Positions 30,701 to 43,449 of a DNA stretch of 64,000 nucleotides are shown here, piece by piece; the first letter of the stretch is position 1, and each line of letters opens with the position of its first letter. The DNA comes from Eledone cirrhosa (Eukaryota): assembly GCA_964016885.1 (NCBI GenBank), contig OZ024742.1, positions 353,710,001-353,774,000 of the forward strand. Reading direction: 5' to 3'. Below the pieces are notes generated by a model that worked only from the letters and a program-made list of their open reading frames with translations, was not told where the DNA came from and did no database searches. Both the position numbers and the translations under genes were made by a program.

Positions 30701-31310
30701 AGGTATTATTTATTTCAGCATTCAGATCATTGTCTGCTTCGGATGGTTCCTCCGTTTTCTCAACCTCTTCACCTTCATTTCCCACTGCTTTGTTTGCCTG
30801 GCATATTCCACTCTCCATTTCCAAGCTAATCTCTCTGCTCAGTTCTTCCAGTTCCAGCTCGCTTATCCACCCATTAGTTCTTATTACCCGAGCCTGTCCG
30901 GCCAATTTTTGTTCATCTAATTTAAATAGACCAATCCCGTTCCAGATGTTATGCATCCGTTTCCTATAGCCTTTCTCCTTGGGGTTACTCTTCAGGTAAC
31001 ATTGCATAACAGTTCTATACAATTCTTTCGTTCAGTCGGTTCTGGCCCCTTTCCTTCTTCTTCCTCCGACACCAGCGGTATTTGGTTGACAGCCAGGTCC
31101 CTGCTGCTGAGCCAGGGAGCACCTGTTGGGTGAGAGTCTGTCACATGACATTCTAGTCTCCATTTTAGCGTTATTCGAACTGTTTAGGTTCGACATTTAA
31201 ACACTCTTATCGAGGATTGGCGAATGTATCGTTACATAACCACCGGTGATTTCATCACCTCTGGTGATTTCGTCACTCCCGGTGATTTCTGTGTGGTATT
31301 ATCACGCTGT
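27710..31310 (-). mobile_element. R4/Dong-like RLE non-LTR retrotransposon, decayed (coding about 27785-31196)
   Basis: NYRPITCL; WIDYKKAFDMVPHSW; GIFQRDSLSPLLF; YKYLGV; CRIC..ETVAH knuckle; RPDLVILD..IVDVACP..EKVNRYQDL RLE. Fragmented ORFs; (TAA)n downstream. Confidence 0.85.
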
Positions 31311-32605: not shown

Positions 32606-32646
<41 letters not shown>

Positions 32647-32786
32647 TGCATTTATCTTGCTTTATGTTTATACGAGTTATCACCAAGTCACAACCAGTGA
32701 CCTCAAGAGACAACAAGGTCCGCCATGTTCAAGAAAGAACACACATATTCACACATGCATCCTTAGTGTTTAGACTTGTGATGTAC

Positions 32787-35700
32787 TTATATTGACAGGA
32801 TCTTCCTTAGTATATGGGCAGTTCCCATTAGTACTATCTTTTGTATTTCTCCTATACGCGGGTTTCCTGGGATTTGCGATAAGTAGTCGTTAGACCCCTT
32901 AGGTATCATTCCCAGAGCGCCTACAACCACTGGTATTGTTTTAGTTCTCAATTTCCACATTTTTCCAATTTCTATCTCCAGGTCCTTATACTTGCTCAAT
33001 TTTTCAAATGTTTTTATAGATACATTCTTGTCTATTGGAACAGACATATCAATTAGCAGGCATACCCTCCTTTGAAAGTCCTTCAATATTATATCAGGTC
33101 TATTTGCATCTATTTTTCGGTCTGTTTGGATTCTAAAGTTCCACAAGATTGAGATGTGATCTTTTTCAAGTATGGGAGGTGGTTGATGCTCCCACCAATT
33201 CTTTTGATGGGGCAGGTCAAAATGCTTACACATTATCCAATGTATGTATTGTGCAGCTCTGTCATGCCTGTTTAGGTATTCGGTTGGAGCTATAGGACTG
33301 CACATTGAAATTATATGGTCAATGGTCTCTGGTTGTTTTTTGCATACACGGCATAGTGGGCTGCACCCATTTTTTATTATGTTGGCTTGGTAATTTTTTG
33401 TTGGCAGACACTGATCTTGTGCGGATATAATCAGTCCTTCAGTCTCCGATTTCAGTCCAGAGGATGCCAACCACTGATGGGTTAAAGTTTTGTCAACATC
33501 AGGATTGTTAGCTCGCTCTGGGTATTTTCCATACAGAGGCTTTTCTTGCCATTTCTTAGCCAGTTTCTGTAGCAGTTCTTTCTTTGCAGTTACTTTTACC
33601 TGCTTTGCTTTTTCTGTGTTTTCCATTTCAGCAGTAAATGGGACTTCTGAAATTTGTAGTCCATTACTGTATCTTTGTGCATCTTTTGTAATGGAATATG
33701 ATCTTTTGGTGCTTTCGTGTTTCAAAACGAGTTTGATCATCCAATCATGTGATTCCCTTAGATATGTGGATAATCCAATTGTTGCAGTTTTCAACGCAAT
33801 GTCTAACTGGATTAACCCACGTCCTCCTTCTTTCCTAGGGAGATATATTCTATCTATGTCTGCCTTAGGGTGATGCATTCTGTGCATGGTTAAGAATTTT
33901 CGGATTTTTGTATCGAGCCTATGGATCTCTGTGCTTGACCAGTTGATGACATTGTAACTGTAGGTTACTACTGGTATGGCAAGCGTGTTTATGGCATCGA
34001 TCCTATTCCTTGCATTCAATTCCGTTCTTAAGATTGCTCTGACTCTGCGGTAACATTCCTTCCTTATCCTTTCCCTCATTGTCGAGTGCTTGATTCCGTC
34101 TCCTTCACAAACACCTAGATATTTGTAAGTTTGTTCTTGATCAAGCTCTCTTATCACGTTCCCCCGATCAAGATTAATGTCTGAACTCTTCAGCAGCTTT
34201 CCTCTGGTGAACGTTGCTTTGGCGCATTTATCCAGTCCAAACTCCATTTTAATGTCATCACTGAACTGCTTCACAGTGGATAATAGCCCTTGCAATTGTT
34301 CATCATTTTTTGCAAATAGTTTCAGGTCATCCATGTAGAACAGGTGATTAATGGTTTTGTCATAGACTCTATATCCATGTTTTGTTTCATTGAGCATTTT
34401 ACTTAATGGTATAAGTGCGATGCAGAATAAAAGCGGTGATAAAGAGTCACCCTGAAAAATTCCACAATTAATGTTAACTTCTCCAGCTTCCAGTGATTTT
34501 GTTTCACTATTCAAAAGGAGTGTCGTTCTCCATGTCCTCATACTGAATGACAAAAACCTCCTGACAACGGGGGATATTTTGAAAATCTCTAAACATTTTT
34601 CAATCCAACTGTGTGGCAAACTATCAAATGCTTTTTTATAATCTATCCAAGCAATCGATAGATTTTTGTGTCTATTATGACAATCTTCCAGTATCATTTT
34701 GTTAACCAGAAGCTGATCCTTACAGCCATATGAGCCTCGTTTACACCCTTTCTGCTCAATGGGAAATAGGTCATTTGTTATCAGGTGGTCATATGTGTAT
34801 TCAGTTAGGACTGATGTTAAAATTTTATACATTGTGGTCAAGCAGGTTATCGGTCTGTAATTTTTGGGATTGTTTGTCTCATCATTCTTCGGTAGCAGGA
34901 ATGTAATGCCGTTAACTAGCCATGATGGTATCTTTTCTGGCTCCTTAACTATTTCATTGTAAAGTTGGGCTAACAGCTCATGAGACTCTGTGAAGGCATT
35001 TATCCAAAAGTTTTGTATTTTGTCTTTTCCTGGGGATTTCCATTTGCTGGTTTTTCTTAGAGCCAAGCGCAGCTGTTCAACTGTTATATTTTCCCATGTT
35101 TGTTCTTCAAGGTGAGCTGTTTCTTTCATTTGTCTGTCTATCCATGGGGCATGTATGTTATGAACTTTTTCTTCGGCCCAGATCTTTTCCCAGAATTCTT
35201 GTACTTCCTCCTTGGGTGGTATTGATTTAGCAGTTATTGTTGACTTACCAATTTTTCTGTAGAAGTTTCTTTGGTTGTTTTTGAACATATTATTGTCCTT
35301 ATAGAATCTAGATCGTTTTTCAAAGCGCCTTATACGAGCAGCTTTGGCCGACACTTTTTGCTTGATTGTTTCTATCAGCATGTCTATGTCACATGTTGAT
35401 CTTATACTGTACTTTTTTTTTAATTTTCTAAGTTTAGTTTGTTTAACATGTTCACCTACTTTATAGTTTGTTAAAATGTCTATGTCAGATCGGAGAAGGT
35501 TTATTTGGCGATTGATGTTATCTTGCCAAGTAGATTTCTTGTGGGAATTCTTTTGTTTTTTCATCTTCACTCCACATAAGTGAGTGGTGACTTTAGCCGA
35601 TGCATAATAGAGATGATTTAAGTCAGTAATGTTTATTTTGTTTGTGATGATAATGTTTTTGAGAATTATGTTAGTCTTGTGTATTATCTTTTGGTTCTGT

Positions 35701-36437
35701 TTGGAGTTCTGGATCTTAGGGAGGGTGTCTCGTTCCCCCATGTCAGATTCTTTCATTTTCATCCATTCGATCATAATTTCATCCTTCAAGTTGGCAAGTT
35801 CATTCTCATTCATTTCTTTATCATTTACGATCTCATTATTTTCATTTGGAGTTTCATCCTGAGCATGCACTCCCTCCACTTTTTCGCTCCTTTCTTTAAT
35901 TTGTTCTGTTGCCAGTGATTCCGCCCCAACTCTGGGATTCGAAGTGTTACAGTTTACCTCGTTTTCACTGACACATGCTTCATTTTCCCTTCGCTGACTT
36001 TGTGCTACTAGCTTGATCTGATCAATTTCTATATCAGTTAGTAACTTTTTTCTTACAATATTTCTTCGTATATTGGCTAGTTTGTTACTGTCAATATAGC
36101 CTCTGTTTTCGGGATGTTTCTTTTTCCAGTTGATATATGTTTGCTCTGTATTCGATGTATTTGATGGGTAGTACATGGCAGTGTAGAAAGCCTCAAGGAC
36201 TTCTTTATTATCTTCCCTTGACCATTTTTCTCTCTTTTTCTTTGGATTTCTTGGTGGTGAGCATGGAGGGCCAACAGTAGGAGTATTCCGGTTATGGGAG
36301 GTCTCCAGCTCCGAAGTGATGGGAAGGTTTGAACCATTAGCTGATTTTTCGACCCCAGTCTGGTTCCTCTCTGAGGGACGCGGCCCTTTTTTACCCGGGT
36401 GACGGCCGATCCGGTATGAGATTTCATCATTAGACAT
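32787..36437 (-). CDS. 1216-aa reverse transcriptase / CCHC knuckle / restriction-like endonuclease protein
   Basis: N-terminal REKWSREDN (Myb-like); KSPGKD; NYRPITCL; WIDYKKAFDS; GIFQGDSLSPLLF; YMDD; YKYLG; CRVCKKQPETIDHIISMC; RPDIILKD..LIDMSVP..EKLSKY. Confidence 0.93.
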   Translation of the reverse strand: MSNDEISYRIGRHPGKKGPRPSERNQTGVEKSANGSNLPITSELETSHNRNTPTVGPPCSPPRNPKKKREKWSREDNKEVLEAFYTAMYYPSNTSNTEQTYINWKKKHPENRGYIDSNKLANIRRNIVRKKLLTDIEIDQIKLVAQSQRRENEACVSENEVNCNTSNPRVGAESLATEQIKERSEKVEGVHAQDETPNENNEIVNDKEMNENELANLKDEIMIEWMKMKESDMGERDTLPKIQNSKQNQKIIHKTNIILKNIIITNKINITDLNHLYYASAKVTTHLCGVKMKKQKNSHKKSTWQDNINRQINLLRSDIDILTNYKVGEHVKQTKLRKLKKKYSIRSTCDIDMLIETIKQKVSAKAARIRRFEKRSRFYKDNNMFKNNQRNFYRKIGKSTITAKSIPPKEEVQEFWEKIWAEEKVHNIHAPWIDRQMKETAHLEEQTWENITVEQLRLALRKTSKWKSPGKDKIQNFWINAFTESHELLAQLYNEIVKEPEKIPSWLVNGITFLLPKNDETNNPKNYRPITCLTTMYKILTSVLTEYTYDHLITNDLFPIEQKGCKRGSYGCKDQLLVNKMILEDCHNRHKNLSIAWIDYKKAFDSLPHSWIEKCLEIFKISPVVRRFLSFSMRTWRTTLLLNSETKSLEAGEVNINCGIFQGDSLSPLLFCIALIPLSKMLNETKHGYRVYDKTINHLFYMDDLKLFAKNDEQLQGLLSTVKQFSDDIKMEFGLDKCAKATFTRGKLLKSSDINLDRGNVIRELDQEQTYKYLGVCEGDGIKHSTMRERIRKECYRRVRAILRTELNARNRIDAINTLAIPVVTYSYNVINWSSTEIHRLDTKIRKFLTMHRMHHPKADIDRIYLPRKEGGRGLIQLDIALKTATIGLSTYLRESHDWMIKLVLKHESTKRSYSITKDAQRYSNGLQISEVPFTAEMENTEKAKQVKVTAKKELLQKLAKKWQEKPLYGKYPERANNPDVDKTLTHQWLASSGLKSETEGLIISAQDQCLPTKNYQANIIKNGCSPLCRVCKKQPETIDHIISMCSPIAPTEYLNRHDRAAQYIHWIMCKHFDLPHQKNWWEHQPPPILEKDHISILWNFRIQTDRKIDANRPDIILKDFQRRVCLLIDMSVPIDKNVSIKTFEKLSKYKDLEIEIGKMWKLRTKTIPVVVGALGMIPKGSNDYLSQIPGNPRIGEIQKIVLMGTAHILRKILSI

Positions 36438-36461
36438 CTACCTTATTTTGTCGCGTTTTAT

Positions 36462-36597
36462 CCTTAACCGCCAAGGGGTAATCTTTTCGTGTTACCACTT
36501 CTAGAACGAGTGTCAACCAAGACTAGAGGGGTCGTTCTCCCCTAGAGACATGGCTATTCCCCGCCGGCCGCCATCCCGGTATTTCTTGGTCACGGGG
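36462..36597 (-). ncRNA. Multi-pseudoknot structured RNA in R4 5' UTR, function unknown
   Basis: Nine complementary segment pairs in 136 nt, three of them crossing (listed in findings). Confidence 0.55.
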
Positions 36598-36683
36598 TTT
36601 TCTTTTTGTTGTTTTTTTTAAATTGTTATTATCATGAGTGGTACCTTAATGTGAGCATTGCGTGGCTTAAGAATGAAATTATT

Positions 36684-36735
36684 AATAATTGTCTCCACTC
36701 CAGGGACAAGGCCAGCAATCACCCAGTGCATTACA
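36684..36735 (-). mobile_element. S1 SINE 3' fragment
   Basis: ACAAGGCCAGCAATCACCCAGTGCATTAC. Confidence 0.6.
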
Positions 36736-36739
36736 ATAA

Positions 36740-37552
36740 TATAATATACTTTTTGTTGTAGTTGGCTGTTATTGCTGCTGGCTATGTCGGTGGTGGTGCC
36801 GGGGCTTTTTATATTGTTGGTGAGGAAGGGGTGAGCCAGCAGTCCCATAATTGTTGATGTAGACGTTTGTCCGTGGCAAGGTCACCAAGTCAATCTATTT
36901 ATATCTTTTGCTAGCCTCTCTCTTGTCTAGTGCTACCACCACCTTCCCTTTCTCTCTGAAGTTAACAGGGGAATAGTGTCAGTAGCATTGAATGAGTGGT
37001 GGCGGCGATGATGGATGTGGTGGGGAGGTGGCAGCGGTGGTGTTGTGGTTACTGATATAGTATCTATGAGTTTGTGTTCGTATGTTTAATATATATTTTC
37101 ATTATATTTTGTGTTGACATATTCCCGTAAAATTTGAATTAAACATTTTTTTAAATTTGAGACAATAATAATAGTAATTATTATTATGATGCCGGTGAAG
37201 TTGCCGTTATCTAGCTGTTATATTTAGTGTGATGGGATAGGTAGTGTATCAAGTTTCTGGTGTTGGTGAAATTGAAATTGCCGCTGTTCTATATAGTGTA
37301 GACAGAGGGTGTTTTGTTCCATTTATAACCATTTTCTTTTTTTGAATACAAAATATATAATACAAAATTGAATATTTGAGCGATACAACAATATAATATG
37401 GATCCGAAACTTTATGGGACCTCATTCGGTGCCTTTATGCAACATTTGTGCTAAGAATTGTTCTTTCACAATTGATTTAAATATGTTAAAAATCAAAAAA
37501 CTTACGGGAGCAATTTCGTGACGTTCAACCACCTCGTGCGTCTTCTTCCCTT

Positions 37553-37555
<3 letters not shown>
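36740..37555 (-). mobile_element. Possible decayed 5' part of a Tx1-like LINE
   Basis: Starts beside (TAA)n; carries GCTCCCGTAAGTT (37499-37511, minus), also present near the 5' end of the Tx1 copy at 43468. Confidence 0.35.
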
Positions 37556-37606
<51 letters not shown>

Positions 37607-40600
37607 GCGGCCTAGGTAGTAAATCGTATTATCGTGAGCTCCGCAAAGGTTTGTTATTTTCAGTTGATTAAAATTGCCATTTATGGAAAATGTTTATTGT
37701 TAACTGTATATAAGTGCACATACATTGTTTTCTGAAAAGGACATTCAAAAAAGATTGGGGCCTTGTGCCCAAAATTTAAACTTTTATAATTATCAAAAGA
37801 TTTCTTTGAAAACATCATGGCTGACTCACAGCTGCAACAAGCGGCCGGGAGCCTTTCTCACAAACTATCACCTCACACCGACAACACCATTGTAAATATT
37901 ACTACGTTAGCCAACACTAAAAATATATGCAGAAGCAATATTTTAAATTTGTCTCAGGTAGACATTCATTTCCCGCCATTACCAATGACTGCAGGTGTTA
38001 ATGCCATCACACCCACCACCACCACCACCACAGCGACAACAGAAACAAAAGAAAAAAAATTAACTCGTGATATCGAAATTAATTCAACCAAAATGAACTC
38101 ATCCACACCAAACACCACTGACGCAACCACCACCACAACTGAAACTAAAATTAGTAATAACAAAAATAACGATAACAACAACATTAACAATGAAATTAAG
38201 AAAACTACCATGAGTTTTGCGAGAGTAGCAAAAACGTGCAAAGCGATTCGTGTAACACAGGAGGAATTAGAAGAAGCCAAAAGAATGGTAAAGAAAGATG
38301 GGTACAGGGTCAGCCTTACCCCCACCCCCACAACTAATAAATGGAGCATCGTCGCCTATGCACCGTGTCTTATCGGACAATTAACGTAAAATCGCGCCGA
38401 GTAGAACGGGCATCCGAGTCCCAAATCCAAAAAGCTTTGGGACATCTGTGGGCGAGAAAAAACCACATCAGACTTGGGCAGAAATATGGAACCGTGGACG
38501 TGTTCTTTGAAACACCACAGGAGGCCAGAGAACACTACATGGCCCAATTAAGAAGTGACGACTTCAAACTCGTCCCAAGCTATTGTGGCCAGAGACTCTT
38601 GAAGATCAGGGTGACCCACGTTCCACGGGCCATCGAAATTCCCTGGCTAATGGCTGCCGTCCTCGCCGGCATCGAGGCCAAAACCATGATAATCGAAATA
38701 GCGAAAGATAAGCAGGAGAACTGGTCCGGATCTGGGATGGAACTCCTGATCCAAGCGGACCATAAAAGCATTGAGGAGATCCCAGAATGTAATAGACCTC
38801 ACTGACGGCAGCCACCTCACCGTAATCGTCGAGGGCAGAAGGCCTAGGTGTGTCATTTGTGGTGAAGGAACCTACCTAAATTGTTCTGCCCTCAGGCTAA
38901 AAGGTTGAGGCCACCTCTCTTATCTACCCCAGTGACTCAACCATCAATACCACCAGCAGCAGAGATGGCAGCAACAACTGTAGCAGCAACAGCAGAAGCA
39001 ATTGTAATGGCAACGACCGCAGCAACAGTAGCAAAACATACACCACCACCACCCAACGCGCCAGAACTAGCACCAGCGCCTACACCATCCACCACGCCAC
39101 AACCAAAACCAACGGCTGTGGAGGATATTCCACTACCCGGCTTATCGCAACTGGAGACAGATTGTGACGACGAGGAGTGGGAAACGGTATTAGGGAAAAA
39201 GAAAAAAAAGAAACCCCAAAAAAGAAAACATTCTCTTCCTTCCCCCTCCAAAAATAACATACAGAGGGAAACAAATAAACTATCAAACAAAAAAGTAAGG
39301 ACATATATTCCACCATCCACACCAGCATCTCCAACGCCATCACCACAAACACCAACACCATCACCATCATTAACCCCAACACCACCATCACCAACAACAC
39401 AAAAGTCACCAAAAAGCGAAACAGAAACAAACCCACAACAAACGCAAACAAAACAATACAACCAAAACGATACACACTACACATCATTAAATTTGAACAA
39501 CAACAAATTATTACACTACATCCAACACAACACCAGCATCACAGAAAGAGACTACAAAACAACCCAAAAGTTCACACCACCTCCACACATACAAATCACT
39601 CGCATCACACAGAAAATGTACACGACACTAAAACAAAAATTCCCCAAATACATCGGAGACTTCCGACAAACACTCTCAAGGAGGATTCATAAGGACATCC
39701 TTCCGGAGGAGGCCACATCAGTGAAAAGGATGGAGAAACCATCCTCAATCTACGAGAAGTAAGGTAAATGGTCTTTCCCATCTTTTCCACTCCATTTGAA
39801 CATGACCTCACTCAGAATAGGCAGCATAAATGCGCGTGGCTTGGGGTCGTCATGGAGACAGAGCCACCTGGTCAACGACCTCAGGTCGCTAAACATATAT
39901 GTAATGGCCATCGGCGAGACCAGAAGCTCCGAAGCACGGGCCTTCGCACCGATCTTCGGCGGCTACGATGTGTGCGCATCTCCCGGCAGTCCGGGATCGG
40001 GGTGTGGAGTTGATCTGCTTTTTCGGACAGGTTTGGATACGCCATACGGGCCATCTTCCTGGACCCAGAATGTAAGTTGTTGGTGCTAGACGTGACCAGC
40101 GGAGACGAGCAAACTTTCAGGCTAGTGTCCGTCTATGCTCCGATAGGAGCAGGGCGGCCTGATTTCTTCCGGCTTCTGGAAACCTTTCTTGGAAGGTCCC
40201 GCTCTTTAATGTTAGTAGGCGACTGGAACGGGATCTTAGATGCACGCTGGGACTGTGTGGGATTAGCGGATAAGGGAGGAGGGTGCAAGAGCCTCACCAA
40301 CATGCTCAGGCCTTTTGAACTGTCTGACAGGTACCGATTGGATTTCCCGAATGTGCCAATGTGGACTTGGACAAATCGCATAGGGTCAACCAGATCATAT
40401 CTAGATAGAGTATTTTGTAGGGAAATAGATAGGTCTAGCATAGGCTGTCCACAATTCAAGATAGTCAGCTACACGGGTCACAAATTCGTGATCTGTGTGC
40501 TTGAATTAGATAGGCTTCATAGACGATGACCCGGCTACTGGAAGCTAAACGCGTCCTTATCAGCGCGCAAGGCCTACAGAGACCGGATTAGCGAACTAGT

Positions 40601-43449
40601 TAAGCGGTCGTTGACGGGGGCCATCGTCAATAACAATTGGTGGTTTGCTCTGAAAAGAGCAATTAGAATAGTGTCTATTAGGTTTAATAAGGCTATAGCA
40701 ATAGAGAAAAATAGAGCAGAGGGAGAATTAGTTACAAAATTAGACGAGGCGCTTAGCAAAGGCATCGCGACCGACGTAATTGCGGCGAAATTGGCCCTTG
40801 ACCAATTCTTCAATGCAAAGCACAAAGGCTGCGTTGTTAGGTGCTCTCAGACACGAGGGGACGAAAGCCGTTCAATGGGCCCGAGTGGCGGAGGCGCGTC
40901 GTGGCAACAAAGCCACGATCCGGTCTTTGATGGACCACGTCGTTAGCAGGCTACTCGATCCCGGGCAAATGTGTGAAACTTTTCAGCGACATTTCGCACA
41001 GCTGTACGGGGGCAGGGCGGGCCGGATCGAGGGATGGACTTTAGTGTCTACCTCGACAGACTGCCGCGGCTCTCGGCCACTGAGGCGGAGTGTTGCGAAA
41101 AGCCGATAACAACCGCTGAAGTACGGGAGGCAATGACTGGCTGCACAAGGGGTAAATCGCCTGCTTTGGATGGTCTGAACTTTACGTACAGATGCCAGAC
41201 CTATTCTGAGGCCTCTTGGCGGACGTCTACTGCAACTGGCAACAGAACGGCAGAATTCCCAGCTCTGTGAGCCGAGGAGCTGTGGTGCTGCTGAGAAAGG
41301 ATCCGAAGAAGGGGGATAACATAGATAATGTTAGGCCCATAACTCTGCTAAACACAGAGTTCAAGATTTTGGCCAATGTGCTAACAAAGAGCTTGGCGCT
41401 TATCGTTGGTGGTCTGGTGGGAGAGGAGCAGACATGTACCATTCCCGACAGATCCATGCACGACAACCTCCACCTCATGCGATACATCGTCGAGAGGGTA
41501 GCTAGGGAACCTGGTACGGGTGGGTCCTTGATCAATTCAGATCAGTCGAAAGCTTTCGATAAGGTCGACCATCGTTACCTTGCGGCAATCCTGAGGGCGG
41601 CTGGCTTTGGTCCCGTTTTCAGAGGCTGGATCGCTGCCATACACAGTGACATCTGCTCTGTGGTGAGAGTGAACGGTCACCTTTCGGAACCGTTCAACAT
41701 CATGCGCTCAGTCCGGCAAGGTTATCCCCTCTCATCCCTCTTGTACGCATTGACTCTCGAGCCATTATTGCACAAACTGGAGACGTGGAGGGGGGTCCCG
41801 CGCGGACTAGGATGCGGATGATCCGTGTCAGCATATGCGGACGATGTCACCGTAATGGTGTCGAACACCAAACACATCGAGGCGATCGGCACTACACTAA
41901 GAAAATACGAAGCGGTGACAGGAGTAATGATCAACGTGGAAAAGTCAGTCGGCCTGCAGCTTGGCACCAGGAGAGGCAGGTCCATGCGGTCCAACAGCGT
42001 CTTTGGGCGTTAGACGGACGGTCCGGTTAAATTGCTCGGGGTCTGTTTCGGTCCGGATCTCCAGACGGACAAAAACTGGGACGCGTTGACGAGCAGGGTG
42101 GCTTCTCTCACCTAGAAATGGGCGGAGAGGAAGCTATCCCTGAAAGGTCGAGCTGAGGTGGCTAACGCGTACATCGCGTCCGTAATCTACTACCTCCTGA
42201 CCGTCGTACCCTCTCTTAAGCCCCGCCTGACTGCGCTGGAGCGTTTGCTCTTTCGCTTTTTGTGGAAGGGACGCGCTCTGATGGTCAGGCGGTCCATCTG
42301 CTGTCAACACACGCTACGTGGAGGGCTGGGGGTGCCGTGGCTGAAGATGCACAGACACGATCTCAGTCTACGACATCTCCACCTCTTCCTTGACGGTGAT
42401 CAGGTGTGGTCGTCGTTTGCTAGACGCGTCTTTCCCCAGCTCGTCTCCTTAACGGGGTTGCAGTCCTGGGACAAGCGAAGACCGAGTGGGAAAGCTTGGA
42501 GATTGGAATGTCTTCAGGCGCTCACAACCCTCAACCAATCCGGCATTGTGATCGTGGAAAATCCACCTTGGGGTTCTATAGAGGATTAGTGGAGGGGAGA
42601 GCGACGACGTACTTGGGGAAACTCTAGGCCTCGACGAAAATCAACTAGCCAATCTCTTCGGAAGAACTTTCGGGCCGGGGCCTATGAGCAACTTCCAGAA
42701 AAACCTGGCCTGGCAGTGCTACCGAGGAGCTTTGCCAGTTCGGGATAAACTCTACAGGCATGGAGGTGCCGTCAACCGGGCATGTCTGAGATGCAAGCAG
42801 AGCGACGAAACCGTCCTGCACGCACTCGTCCCGTGTCCGAGCATTGCTGACTTTTGGGTTTATGTCGAACACCTACTTTCTCGTGTAGGACGGATCCAGC
42901 TATCAGCTGAGTCCATCGTGAGAATTGCCCCGCCTTCTTCCGTTAGCCGGGAAGGGCAGGCAACTGTTATCTGTCTGGTGGCCATGGCGAAAGAAATAGT
43001 ATGGTGGACACGTTTGAAATGGATGAAGACGAGCATTTACCTCTTCGGTGATGCCCTGATTAACTTTTTCAAATTTCTTTTGAAAAGGAAAATCAGGGTA
43101 GAGTGGGAAGTGCTCTCTTCCCAGCATTTTGTTGAAAGATGGGTGAGAGAGGCAACAATGGCCCGAGTGAATGGGCCTACTCTGAGTATGTGTCTCTAAA
43201 TTAAATATGAAAACTGGGAGAGGGCACTTGCCCTGGAGGTCAGGGTCACTGTGGCTTTTTAATGGGCTTTCTCCACGAATATACCTCGGAAGTCTTCCCC
43301 TTTTGGGAATTCTTCATTGTTATTTTTTTTGTTACATCCACTGTTTTTTTTTTTTTACACGCAGAAATGCCCATTTGTACCGTCCTGTATTGTCCTGTAC
43401 TGTCCTTAAAGTCTACTTTATGTAAACCCTTGTGGTTAATAAAGAAAGC
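37607..43449 (+). mobile_element. L1/Tx1-like LINE no. 1, full length, decayed
   Basis: ORF1 about 37817-39762 (frameshifted, degenerate Zn knuckle CVIC). ORF2 about 39800-43199: APE (IGSINARGL, ETR, VYAP, GDWN, RSYLDR), RT (RPITLLN, DQSKAFD, VRQG, YADD), CLRC..ETVLHALVPC. AATAAA and ATT tail. Confidence 0.9.

What the first reader, a model, noticed from the sequence alone, without database searches (positions are those of the whole stretch)
36462..36597. Compact triple-pseudoknot RNA at the 5' end of the R4 element
Seen (plus coordinates, RNA on minus strand): nested stems 36593-97/36559-63 (CCCCG/CGGGG), 36576-79/36564-67 (CCGG), 36539-43/36527-31 (AGGGG/CCCCU), 36521-23/36512-14 (GUC/GAC), 36492-96/36477-81 (GGUAA/UUACC) and 36473-76/36462-65 (CCUU/AAGG). 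Three crossing pairings start from loops: AUGGC/GCCAU (36570-74/36550-54), AGAACGA/UCGUUCU (36532-38/36503-09) and ACCAAGA/UCUUGGU (36584-90/36516-22, partly competing with GUC/GAC). The structure starts right after an A-rich flank and ends 24 nt before the AUG. Established: R2 and related LINEs use 5' HDV-like ribozymes. I could not fit this fold to HDV, hammerhead or twister. Inference: an uncharacterised self-cleaving ribozyme or IRES-like translation element.
Basis: partly seen in the sequence, partly recalled or inferred. Interest (0 to 1): 0.75.

Follow-up and report, generated by a model that had tools for sequence, protein, structure and literature searches.

The report
Pseudoknot cassette before retrotransposon start codon
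A jumping gene carries, just before its start codon, three small RNA modules whose base pairing is preserved in distant relatives and in unrelated jumping-gene groups, and they likely help the RNA engage ribosomes rather than cut itself.

Summary
All nine stems are present. Singly they are no more than chance (fold z 0.36), but relatives keep most of them with compensatory changes, so the fold is real. The context was misread: the fold is not at the element's 5' end. It lies 960 nt inside a 1,118-nt leader of a young Dong/R4 LINE; 42 of 48 copies keep DNA upstream of it, which argues against self-cleavage. The HDV P3 helix pairs in only 47% of cells. The middle module is the conserved RTE 5' UTR/Ceph-SINE domain, published as sequence (Kojima 2018, also in a coral R4) but, in my searches, not as an RNA fold. 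The last pseudoknot ends 13-15 nt before AUG in 4 of 4 families, behind 14 upstream AUGs here. Best reading: a host-ribosome-engaging translation-start element (0.45), untested. This scan noted similar RTE-leader pseudoknots before on other DNA (e1-10330631, e1-10326085).

The parts
32646..37555 (-). Full-length young Dong/R4-type LINE (family A) inserted in (AAT)n
   Evidence: 5' end shared by copies; 3' (AAT)n; 1510 candidates, 40 scored, 99-100% identical
36598..37555 (-). About 960-nt leader upstream of the structure; 12 of the 14 upstream AUGs lie here; GT donor-like site at 37505
36550..36597 (-). Module 1: stem P1 (36597-93/36563-59), 13-nt one-sided bulge, stem P2 (36579-76/36567-64), loop pairing with 36554-50 (H-type pseudoknot)
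   Evidence: P1 types CCCCG/CGGGG, CCACG/CGUGG, CCGCG/CGCGG in window, L068, L069, L070; P2 plus 3 pseudoknot pairs 95% paired, 4 of 7 pairs with double changes, 6 sequences
36503..36543 (-). Module 2: H-type pseudoknot S1 (36542-39/36531-28) and S2 (36538-32/36509-03) with hairpin GUC/GAC (36523-21/36514-12) in the long loop; core of the RTE 5' UTR / Ceph domain
   Evidence: 17 sequences, 92.7% of 234 cells paired, 11 of 14 pairs with double changes, 0 of 500 shuffles; published sequences read by eye
36514..36592 (-). Optional cross-pair of the module 1 bulge (36592-84) with the module 2 hairpin (36522-14), up to 9 bp with G.U; competes with GUC/GAC
   Evidence: 9 bp here, 6 bp in L068, 5 bp in L069, in different registers
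36477..36496 (-). Hairpin GGUAA/UUACC
   Evidence: no shared variant (4 or more of 82 copies) falls in its stem; no cross-family pair count
36453..36476 (-).
   Evidence: 35 of 35 cells paired in 5 sequences, one double change in each stem
36438..36452 (-). 15-nt unstructured, variable linker to the AUG
   Evidence: 6 of the 14 shared variant positions lie here; spacing
32787..36437 (-). Single ORF, 1216 aa: RT (RVT_1 516-776), C-x2-C-x8-H-x4-C knuckle and RPD motif of a restriction-like endonuclease

Best explanation
The stretch is a three-module, covarying pseudoknot cassette that sits about 960 nt inside the leader of a Dong/R4 LINE and ends 15 nt before the AUG, and it likely engages the host ribosome so that the ORF can be translated despite many upstream AUGs. 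Shown: helices, covariation, internal position, spacing, and sharing of module 2 with RTE LINEs and a non-coding repeat. Inferred: the last pseudoknot would sit at the mRNA exit side of a 40S subunit with the AUG in the P site, as the HCV IRES pseudoknot is reported to position the start codon. Also inferred: module 2 binds a host factor, probably the ribosome, since it is used by elements whose proteins are unrelated; non-coding elements would keep it to stay near ribosomes making LINE protein.
For: Module 3 ends 15, 13, 13 and 14 nt before the ORF AUG in 4 of 4 families that have it there (window, L068, L074, L065), with different linker sequences. Other families, with ends picked by eye: 13 (L070, L072), 13 and 17 (L058, L061, L062), 15 (L069), 11 (family B). 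14 upstream AUGs lie in the 1,118-nt leader, and the main AUG has a weak context, U at -3 and +4. Among 82 family copies, 3 of 94 paired positions versus 11 of 66 unpaired ones carry shared variants, and all three keep the pair; A-U and G-C at 36536/36505 are linked 54:23, with one G.U and no A.C. Module 2 occurs in R4 relatives, up to three copies per leader, in an RTE LINE of this genome (L176) and in a roughly 600-nt non-coding repeat (23,949 exact hits of a 16-mer). Kojima 2018 reports it in RTE, Ingi-3_AC, R4-1_ADi and SINE bodies.
Against: No translation, ribosome-binding or RNA data. In RTE L176, module 2 lies over 400 nt upstream of the endonuclease-coding frame, so it is not itself a start-codon positioner. 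Two families miss the spacing (L083 21 nt, L079 9 nt, ends picked by eye). An unstructured stretch before an AUG is also expected under ordinary scanning. 14 upstream AUGs is about chance for this composition (17 expected), and an intron in the leader could remove some. The excess of variants at unpaired positions is not significant without the linker (3/94 versus 5/51, p = 0.13). Non-coding repeats keep module 2, which a pure IRES does not explain.
Confidence: 0.45

Rival explanations
1. The cassette is a handle bound by the element's own RT/endonuclease protein during RNP assembly or second-strand steps, like the 5' RNA of R2Bm.
For: R2 5' RNA holds a conserved pseudoknot and regulates integration (PMC12203849 passages; PMC6765202 passages). 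Non-coding repeats and SINEs keep module 2, and tandem copies occur.
Against: The same module serves RLE-type R4, APE-type RTE and Ingi elements with unrelated N-termini. Some close R4 relatives lack it (L058, L070, L074). This reading does not predict a fixed distance to the AUG.
Confidence: 0.22
2. Module 1 is a 5'-protective knot that stalls 5'-to-3' exonucleases and so stabilises or defines the element RNA, xrRNA-like.
For: Module 1 begins within a few nt of (AAT)n in L068, L074 and L321/L178. A stable 5' fold raises R2 insertion, suggesting protection from 5' degradation (PMC11331408 abstract).
Against: Those are single copies. In family A only 1 of 48 copies truly begins just upstream of module 1. 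It is internal in the L069 and L070 families too. No Rfam match.
Confidence: 0.13
3. It is a self-cleaving ribozyme, HDV-like or of a new class.
For: Dong and R4 have tested or reported 5' HDV-like ribozymes (PMC3774820 passages). The window alone can be drawn HDV-like (GACCAA/UUGGUU with a first G.U, AGAAC/GUUCU, GAC/GUC), and P4-less R2 ribozymes exist. Two copies start at the same base, 36535.
Against: The HDV P3 pairs in 47% of cells, against 92% for the competing hairpin. No L3 consensus or CUGANGA in the region. 42 of 48 copies keep upstream leader and 15 reach the true 5' end. Module 2 is kept behind tRNA heads in SINEs.
Confidence: 0.08
4. The conserved sequence works as DNA (a binding site for a transcriptional regulator), as Kojima speculated, and the pairing is incidental.
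For: Kojima 2018 discussion.
Against: Compensatory changes in most helices. The five pattern-free positions plus AG pair 7/7 with the downstream strand in 12 of 29 distinct own-genome hits versus 1 of 79 chance prokaryote hits.
Confidence: 0.04

Closest known systems
Conserved RTE 5' UTR domain / 3' half of the Ceph-SINE domain (Kojima 2018, PMC5786205; abstract, Results sections 15-21, Discussion, supplement parts 12-13 and passages read)
   Same: Module 2 aligns without core gaps with an RTE copy of this domain (L176) and, by eye, with OegopSINE, RTE-1_NV, Ingi-3_AC and AviRTE. It is internal to the UTR and already reported in a coral R4 (R4-1_ADi).
   Different: The paper gives sequence only and speculates on a transcriptional role. 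The window copy lacks the domain's downstream GAG/CUC hairpin and AAACC tail, and adds modules 1 and 3 next to the AUG.
[quoted passage not shown]
   Same: Compact pseudoknotted RNA in a LINE 5' UTR; these ribozymes are also proposed to act as IRESes.
   Different: Not at the 5' end, P3 does not covary, no L3 consensus, upstream RNA retained.
R2Bm 5' RNA pseudoknot (PMC12203849, passages read)
   Same: Conserved pseudoknot near the ORF start of an RLE-type LINE, proposed for translation initiation and protein binding.
   Different: That element lies at the 5' end of the R2 ORF and is known from some insects; no sequence or Rfam match here.
HCV-type and dicistrovirus IGR IRES (PMC8986297 and PMC3894237, passages read)
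   Same: A pseudoknot at a set distance before the start codon (HCV); several pseudoknots in a compact RNA (IGR).
   Different: No Rfam match, no large domains II/III, and an AUG start 15 nt after the last knot rather than a non-AUG start right after a tRNA-like knot.

Membership tests
HDV-like ribozyme | Fold begins at the RNA 5' end, set by self-cleavage | tested here: not met
   About 960 nt inside the element; 42 of 48 copies keep upstream leader
HDV-like ribozyme | P3 helix conserved across homologues | tested here: not met
   47.1% of cells paired in 17 sequences
HDV-like ribozyme | L3 consensus with conserved G, and GG of P1.1 | tested here: not met
   Candidate L3 is CCCUCUA, followed by GA rather than GG; a recalled L3 pattern hits only at 37510; importance of the G from PMC3774820
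HDV-like ribozyme | P1 with a first G.U pair and P2 | tested here: inconclusive
   Can be drawn in the window; the P1 equivalent is not in one register in L068 and L069
HDV-like ribozyme | Self-cleavage dependent on the catalytic C | not testable with these tools
   needs an in vitro assay
Hammerhead ribozyme | CUGANGA core | tested here: not met
   0 hits in 36400-37560, RNA strand (motif recalled)
Any Rfam family | Covariance-model score at or above gathering | tested here: not met
   0 hits in window, best E 10 locally, none at gathering in 10 + 5 related loci
Conserved RTE 5' UTR / Ceph domain | Core GGGN-AG-N5-NCUC...RYC-loop-GRC-..N5-CU-AG | tested here: met
   alignment A3 and pair counts; published sequences by eye
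Conserved RTE 5' UTR / Ceph domain | Downstream GAG/CUC hairpin and AAACC tail | tested here: not met
   replaced by GGUAA/UUACC and module 3
Dicistrovirus IGR IRES | Non-AUG start directly after a tRNA-like pseudoknot | tested here: not met
   Relatives share an AUG 13-15 nt after the last knot; an in-frame stop precedes the AUG here
IRES (functional class) | Cap-independent initiation or direct ribosome binding | not testable with these tools
   needs reporters and toeprinting
xrRNA | Blocks Xrn1 at a defined site | not testable with these tools
   needs an exonuclease assay; no Rfam match
Dong/R4 LINE (host element) | Single ORF with RT, C-terminal knuckle and RLE motif; (TAA)n target | tested here: met
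   the clade name rests on established knowledge, no tree was built

The most novel reading that the evidence does not exclude
A new class of compact, modular multi-pseudoknot ribosome-binding RNA is shared by unrelated LINE clades (R4, RTE, Ingi). It works as an IRES for the LINE ORF and has been captured by SINEs and non-autonomous repeats as a ribosome hook, which would explain why the Ceph/RTE SINE body is conserved across animals.
Probability: 0.25. Interest if true: 0.8.

Novelty: new variant of a known kind. Interest (0 to 1): 0.5.

Why it matters
How single-ORF LINEs translate RNAs with long or uncapped leaders, and why some SINE bodies are conserved across phyla, are both open questions. 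A pair-by-pair fold for the RTE/Ceph domain and a start-codon-spaced pseudoknot turn both into direct tests with compensatory mutants. A 145-nt animal-derived translation element would also be useful for RNA engineering. If the fold is only a protein handle or stabiliser, it is still an RNA family absent from Rfam.

Tried and rejected
Rfam: nothing. Single-sequence folding does not recover the structure. The search for homologous proteins on residues 60-160 found nothing. Protein scans of viral contigs and genome contigs found no relatives. The genome contigs pattern scan gave chance hits, used only as a control. Sequencing runs: no RNA holder listed; contigs showed no GT..AG joint, which says nothing on splicing or expression. 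Stop-start reinitiation from the UAG before the AUG: rejected, since older subfamilies have no stop there. 'Old subfamily starts at module 1': rejected; L044 and L046 keep leader beyond an insertion. The coral-type module 3 pattern has 0 hits in the own genome; a Ceph module 1 pattern has 2, not followed up. A Tx1 origin of the leader was not confirmed: blastn of the leader against this window found no match in the + strand LINE at 37790-42000. Ruminski 2011 and Berry 2010 are not held, so both are known to me only through reviews; their supplements may bear on novelty. Figure 2 and supplementary figure S4 of Kojima 2018, with R4-1_ADi, were not available as text. No covariance model was built and R-scape is not available.

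Full report
Element. The minus strand carries an intact 1216-aa ORF (36437-32787) with an RT domain, a C-x2-C-x8-H-x4-C knuckle and an RPD motif, flanked by (AAT)n. This is a Dong/R4-type LINE by established knowledge; no tree was built. A search of the own genome gave 1510 candidates, of which 40 were scored, at 99-100% identity. Earlier scan notes call the host an octopus; I did not test that.

Position. Copies share sequence far upstream of the finding, up to 37555. The structure is therefore about 960 nt inside a 1,118-nt leader, and the A-rich stretch belongs to the element. I tallied 5' ends for copies chosen without upstream DNA (49 rows, 48 after dropping one duplicate locus). Forty extend 90 nt or more upstream, and 15 of these reach the element end (37538 or beyond). 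Three alignments stop 13-23 nt upstream, but two of those (L044, L046) resume beyond an insertion. Four are truncated inside the structure and one (L053) looks like an internal deletion. So 42 of 48 keep upstream leader and 1 of 48 begins at the structure's edge. Efficient cleavage at or inside the fold would predict the opposite.

Observation. All nine helices are exact. Alone they are unremarkable: z = 0.36, and 76 of 1000 shuffles have two helices of 7 bp or more. Rfam has no match.

Relatives. A profile of the N-terminus gave 31 loci from 79 pattern matches in metagenome contigs, mostly 35-47% identical in protein; I read the upstream DNA of 26. Three modules recur in different combinations.

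Module 1 (36597-36550). P1 reads CCCCG/CGGGG, CCACG/CGUGG and CCGCG/CGCGG in different families; a strict descriptor recovered it in 5 of 14 sources tried. P2 and three pseudoknot pairs are 95% paired in 6 sequences, with 4 of 7 pairs changed on both sides (2 of 500 shuffles). The pseudoknot register shifts somewhat between families.

Module 2 (36543-36503). In 17 sequences, 92.7% of 234 cells pair, 11 of 14 pairs show double changes, 0 of 500 shuffles reach this, and slid controls give 33-49%. Seven of the 17 were found with a pattern that fixes S1, so S1 is partly biased, and the sequences are related. As a freer test, the five open positions plus AG of that pattern pair 7/7 downstream in 12 of 29 distinct own-genome hits versus 1 of 79 prokaryote chance hits (6 or more: 21 versus 14). 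The own hits fall into a few families, so the nominal p overstates this. The HDV alternative, P3 = GAC/GUC, pairs in only 47% of cells. AviRTE sequences close the hairpin with 4-nt loops such as UUCG (by eye), so the hairpin is real and pairing of its loop is optional.

Module 3 (36476-36453). This is thin but consistent.

Within the family. Among 82 copies, 14 positions carry a variant in 4 or more copies. Three are paired positions and all keep the pair; A-U and G-C at 36536/36505 are linked 54:23, with one G.U and no A.C (54:8 without the pattern-selected copies). Paired versus unpaired is 3/94 versus 11/66 (p = 0.004), but 3/94 versus 5/51 (p = 0.13) without the linker.

What module 2 is. 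Scan notes pointed me to Kojima 2018 (PMC5786205). [quoted passage not shown] The supplement sequences match module 2 by eye. In this genome the module occurs in an APE-bearing RTE LINE (L176) and in a roughly 600-nt non-coding repeat. Nine searches of the held library showed no paper describing an RNA fold for this domain; most subscription papers, and Ruminski 2011, were out of reach.

How it likely works. The leader has 14 upstream AUGs (17 expected by composition) and the main AUG has a weak context. Where module 3 defines the end of the structure, the AUG follows after 15, 13, 13 and 14 nt (4 of 4 families). Ends picked by eye in other families give 13, 13/17, 15 and 11, with misses at 21 and 9. 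That is about the length of mRNA held upstream of the P site (own knowledge), and it recalls the HCV pseudoknot that positions the ORF on the 40S (PMC8986297 passages). IRES-like roles are already proposed for R2 and L1Tc 5' structures. Use of module 2 by elements with unrelated proteins points to a host partner. I infer ribosome engagement (0.45). Against it: no functional data, module 2 lies far from the ORF in RTE, non-coding repeats keep it, and an open stretch before an AUG also suits scanning. Rivals are an ORF-protein handle (0.22), 5' protection (0.13), a ribozyme (0.08) and a DNA-level site (0.04).

Verdict. A real structured RNA, probably not a ribozyme, built partly from a sequence domain already in print. 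The pair-level fold and the three-module arrangement before R4 start codons are not in Rfam or in the papers I could search. The scan noted similar RTE-leader pseudoknots before on other DNA. New variant of a known kind; interest 0.5.

Noticed in passing
window 32590-31535 versus 37496-36880 (minus): A second, distant R4 family (ORF start near 31150) carries a leader 75-82% alike to family A's leader, so leaders are shared between families.
   Followed up: partly
window 31240-31140 (minus): Family B has its own structured stretch before the AUG: a module 1-like CCGG/CCGG stem holding two GAAA hairpins, and a final hairpin ending 11 nt before the AUG.
   Followed up: partly
window 37505 (minus): GTAAGT donor-like site 50 nt from the element's 5' end; no spliced copy was noticed among those aligned.
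   Followed up: partly
L058, L059, L061, L062, L064, L071, L083 (5' ends): Metagenome R4 families start with G a few bases after (AAT)n and carry a different GC-rich fold with a possible first G.U pair; it may be the real 5' ribozyme. Several have module 2 downstream of it.
   Followed up: no
L065-L067, L069, L073, L080, L085: Module 2 is repeated two or three times in one R4 leader.
   Followed up: partly
L121, L134, L140, L146: A roughly 600-nt non-coding repeat in (TA)n/(TG)n carries module 2, and its hairpin loop matches an upstream CAAAGG; 23,949 exact hits of a 16-mer in the genome, control 2.
   Followed up: partly
L094, L101 (window-equivalent 36535): Two independent copies are 5'-truncated at the same base inside S2; 4 of 48 truncations fall inside the 145-nt structure.
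   Followed up: no
L321, L322, L324, L325: Old decayed R4 families of this genome show the same module 1, 2, 3, hairpin, AUG order as metagenome family L069.
   Followed up: partly
window 36440-36438: An in-frame stop (UAG or UAA) directly precedes the AUG in young subfamilies but not in older ones.
   Followed up: yes
window 37790-42000 (+): Fragmented ORFs of an endonuclease/RT LINE on the opposite strand; Tx1/L1-like by recall, not tested.
   Followed up: no
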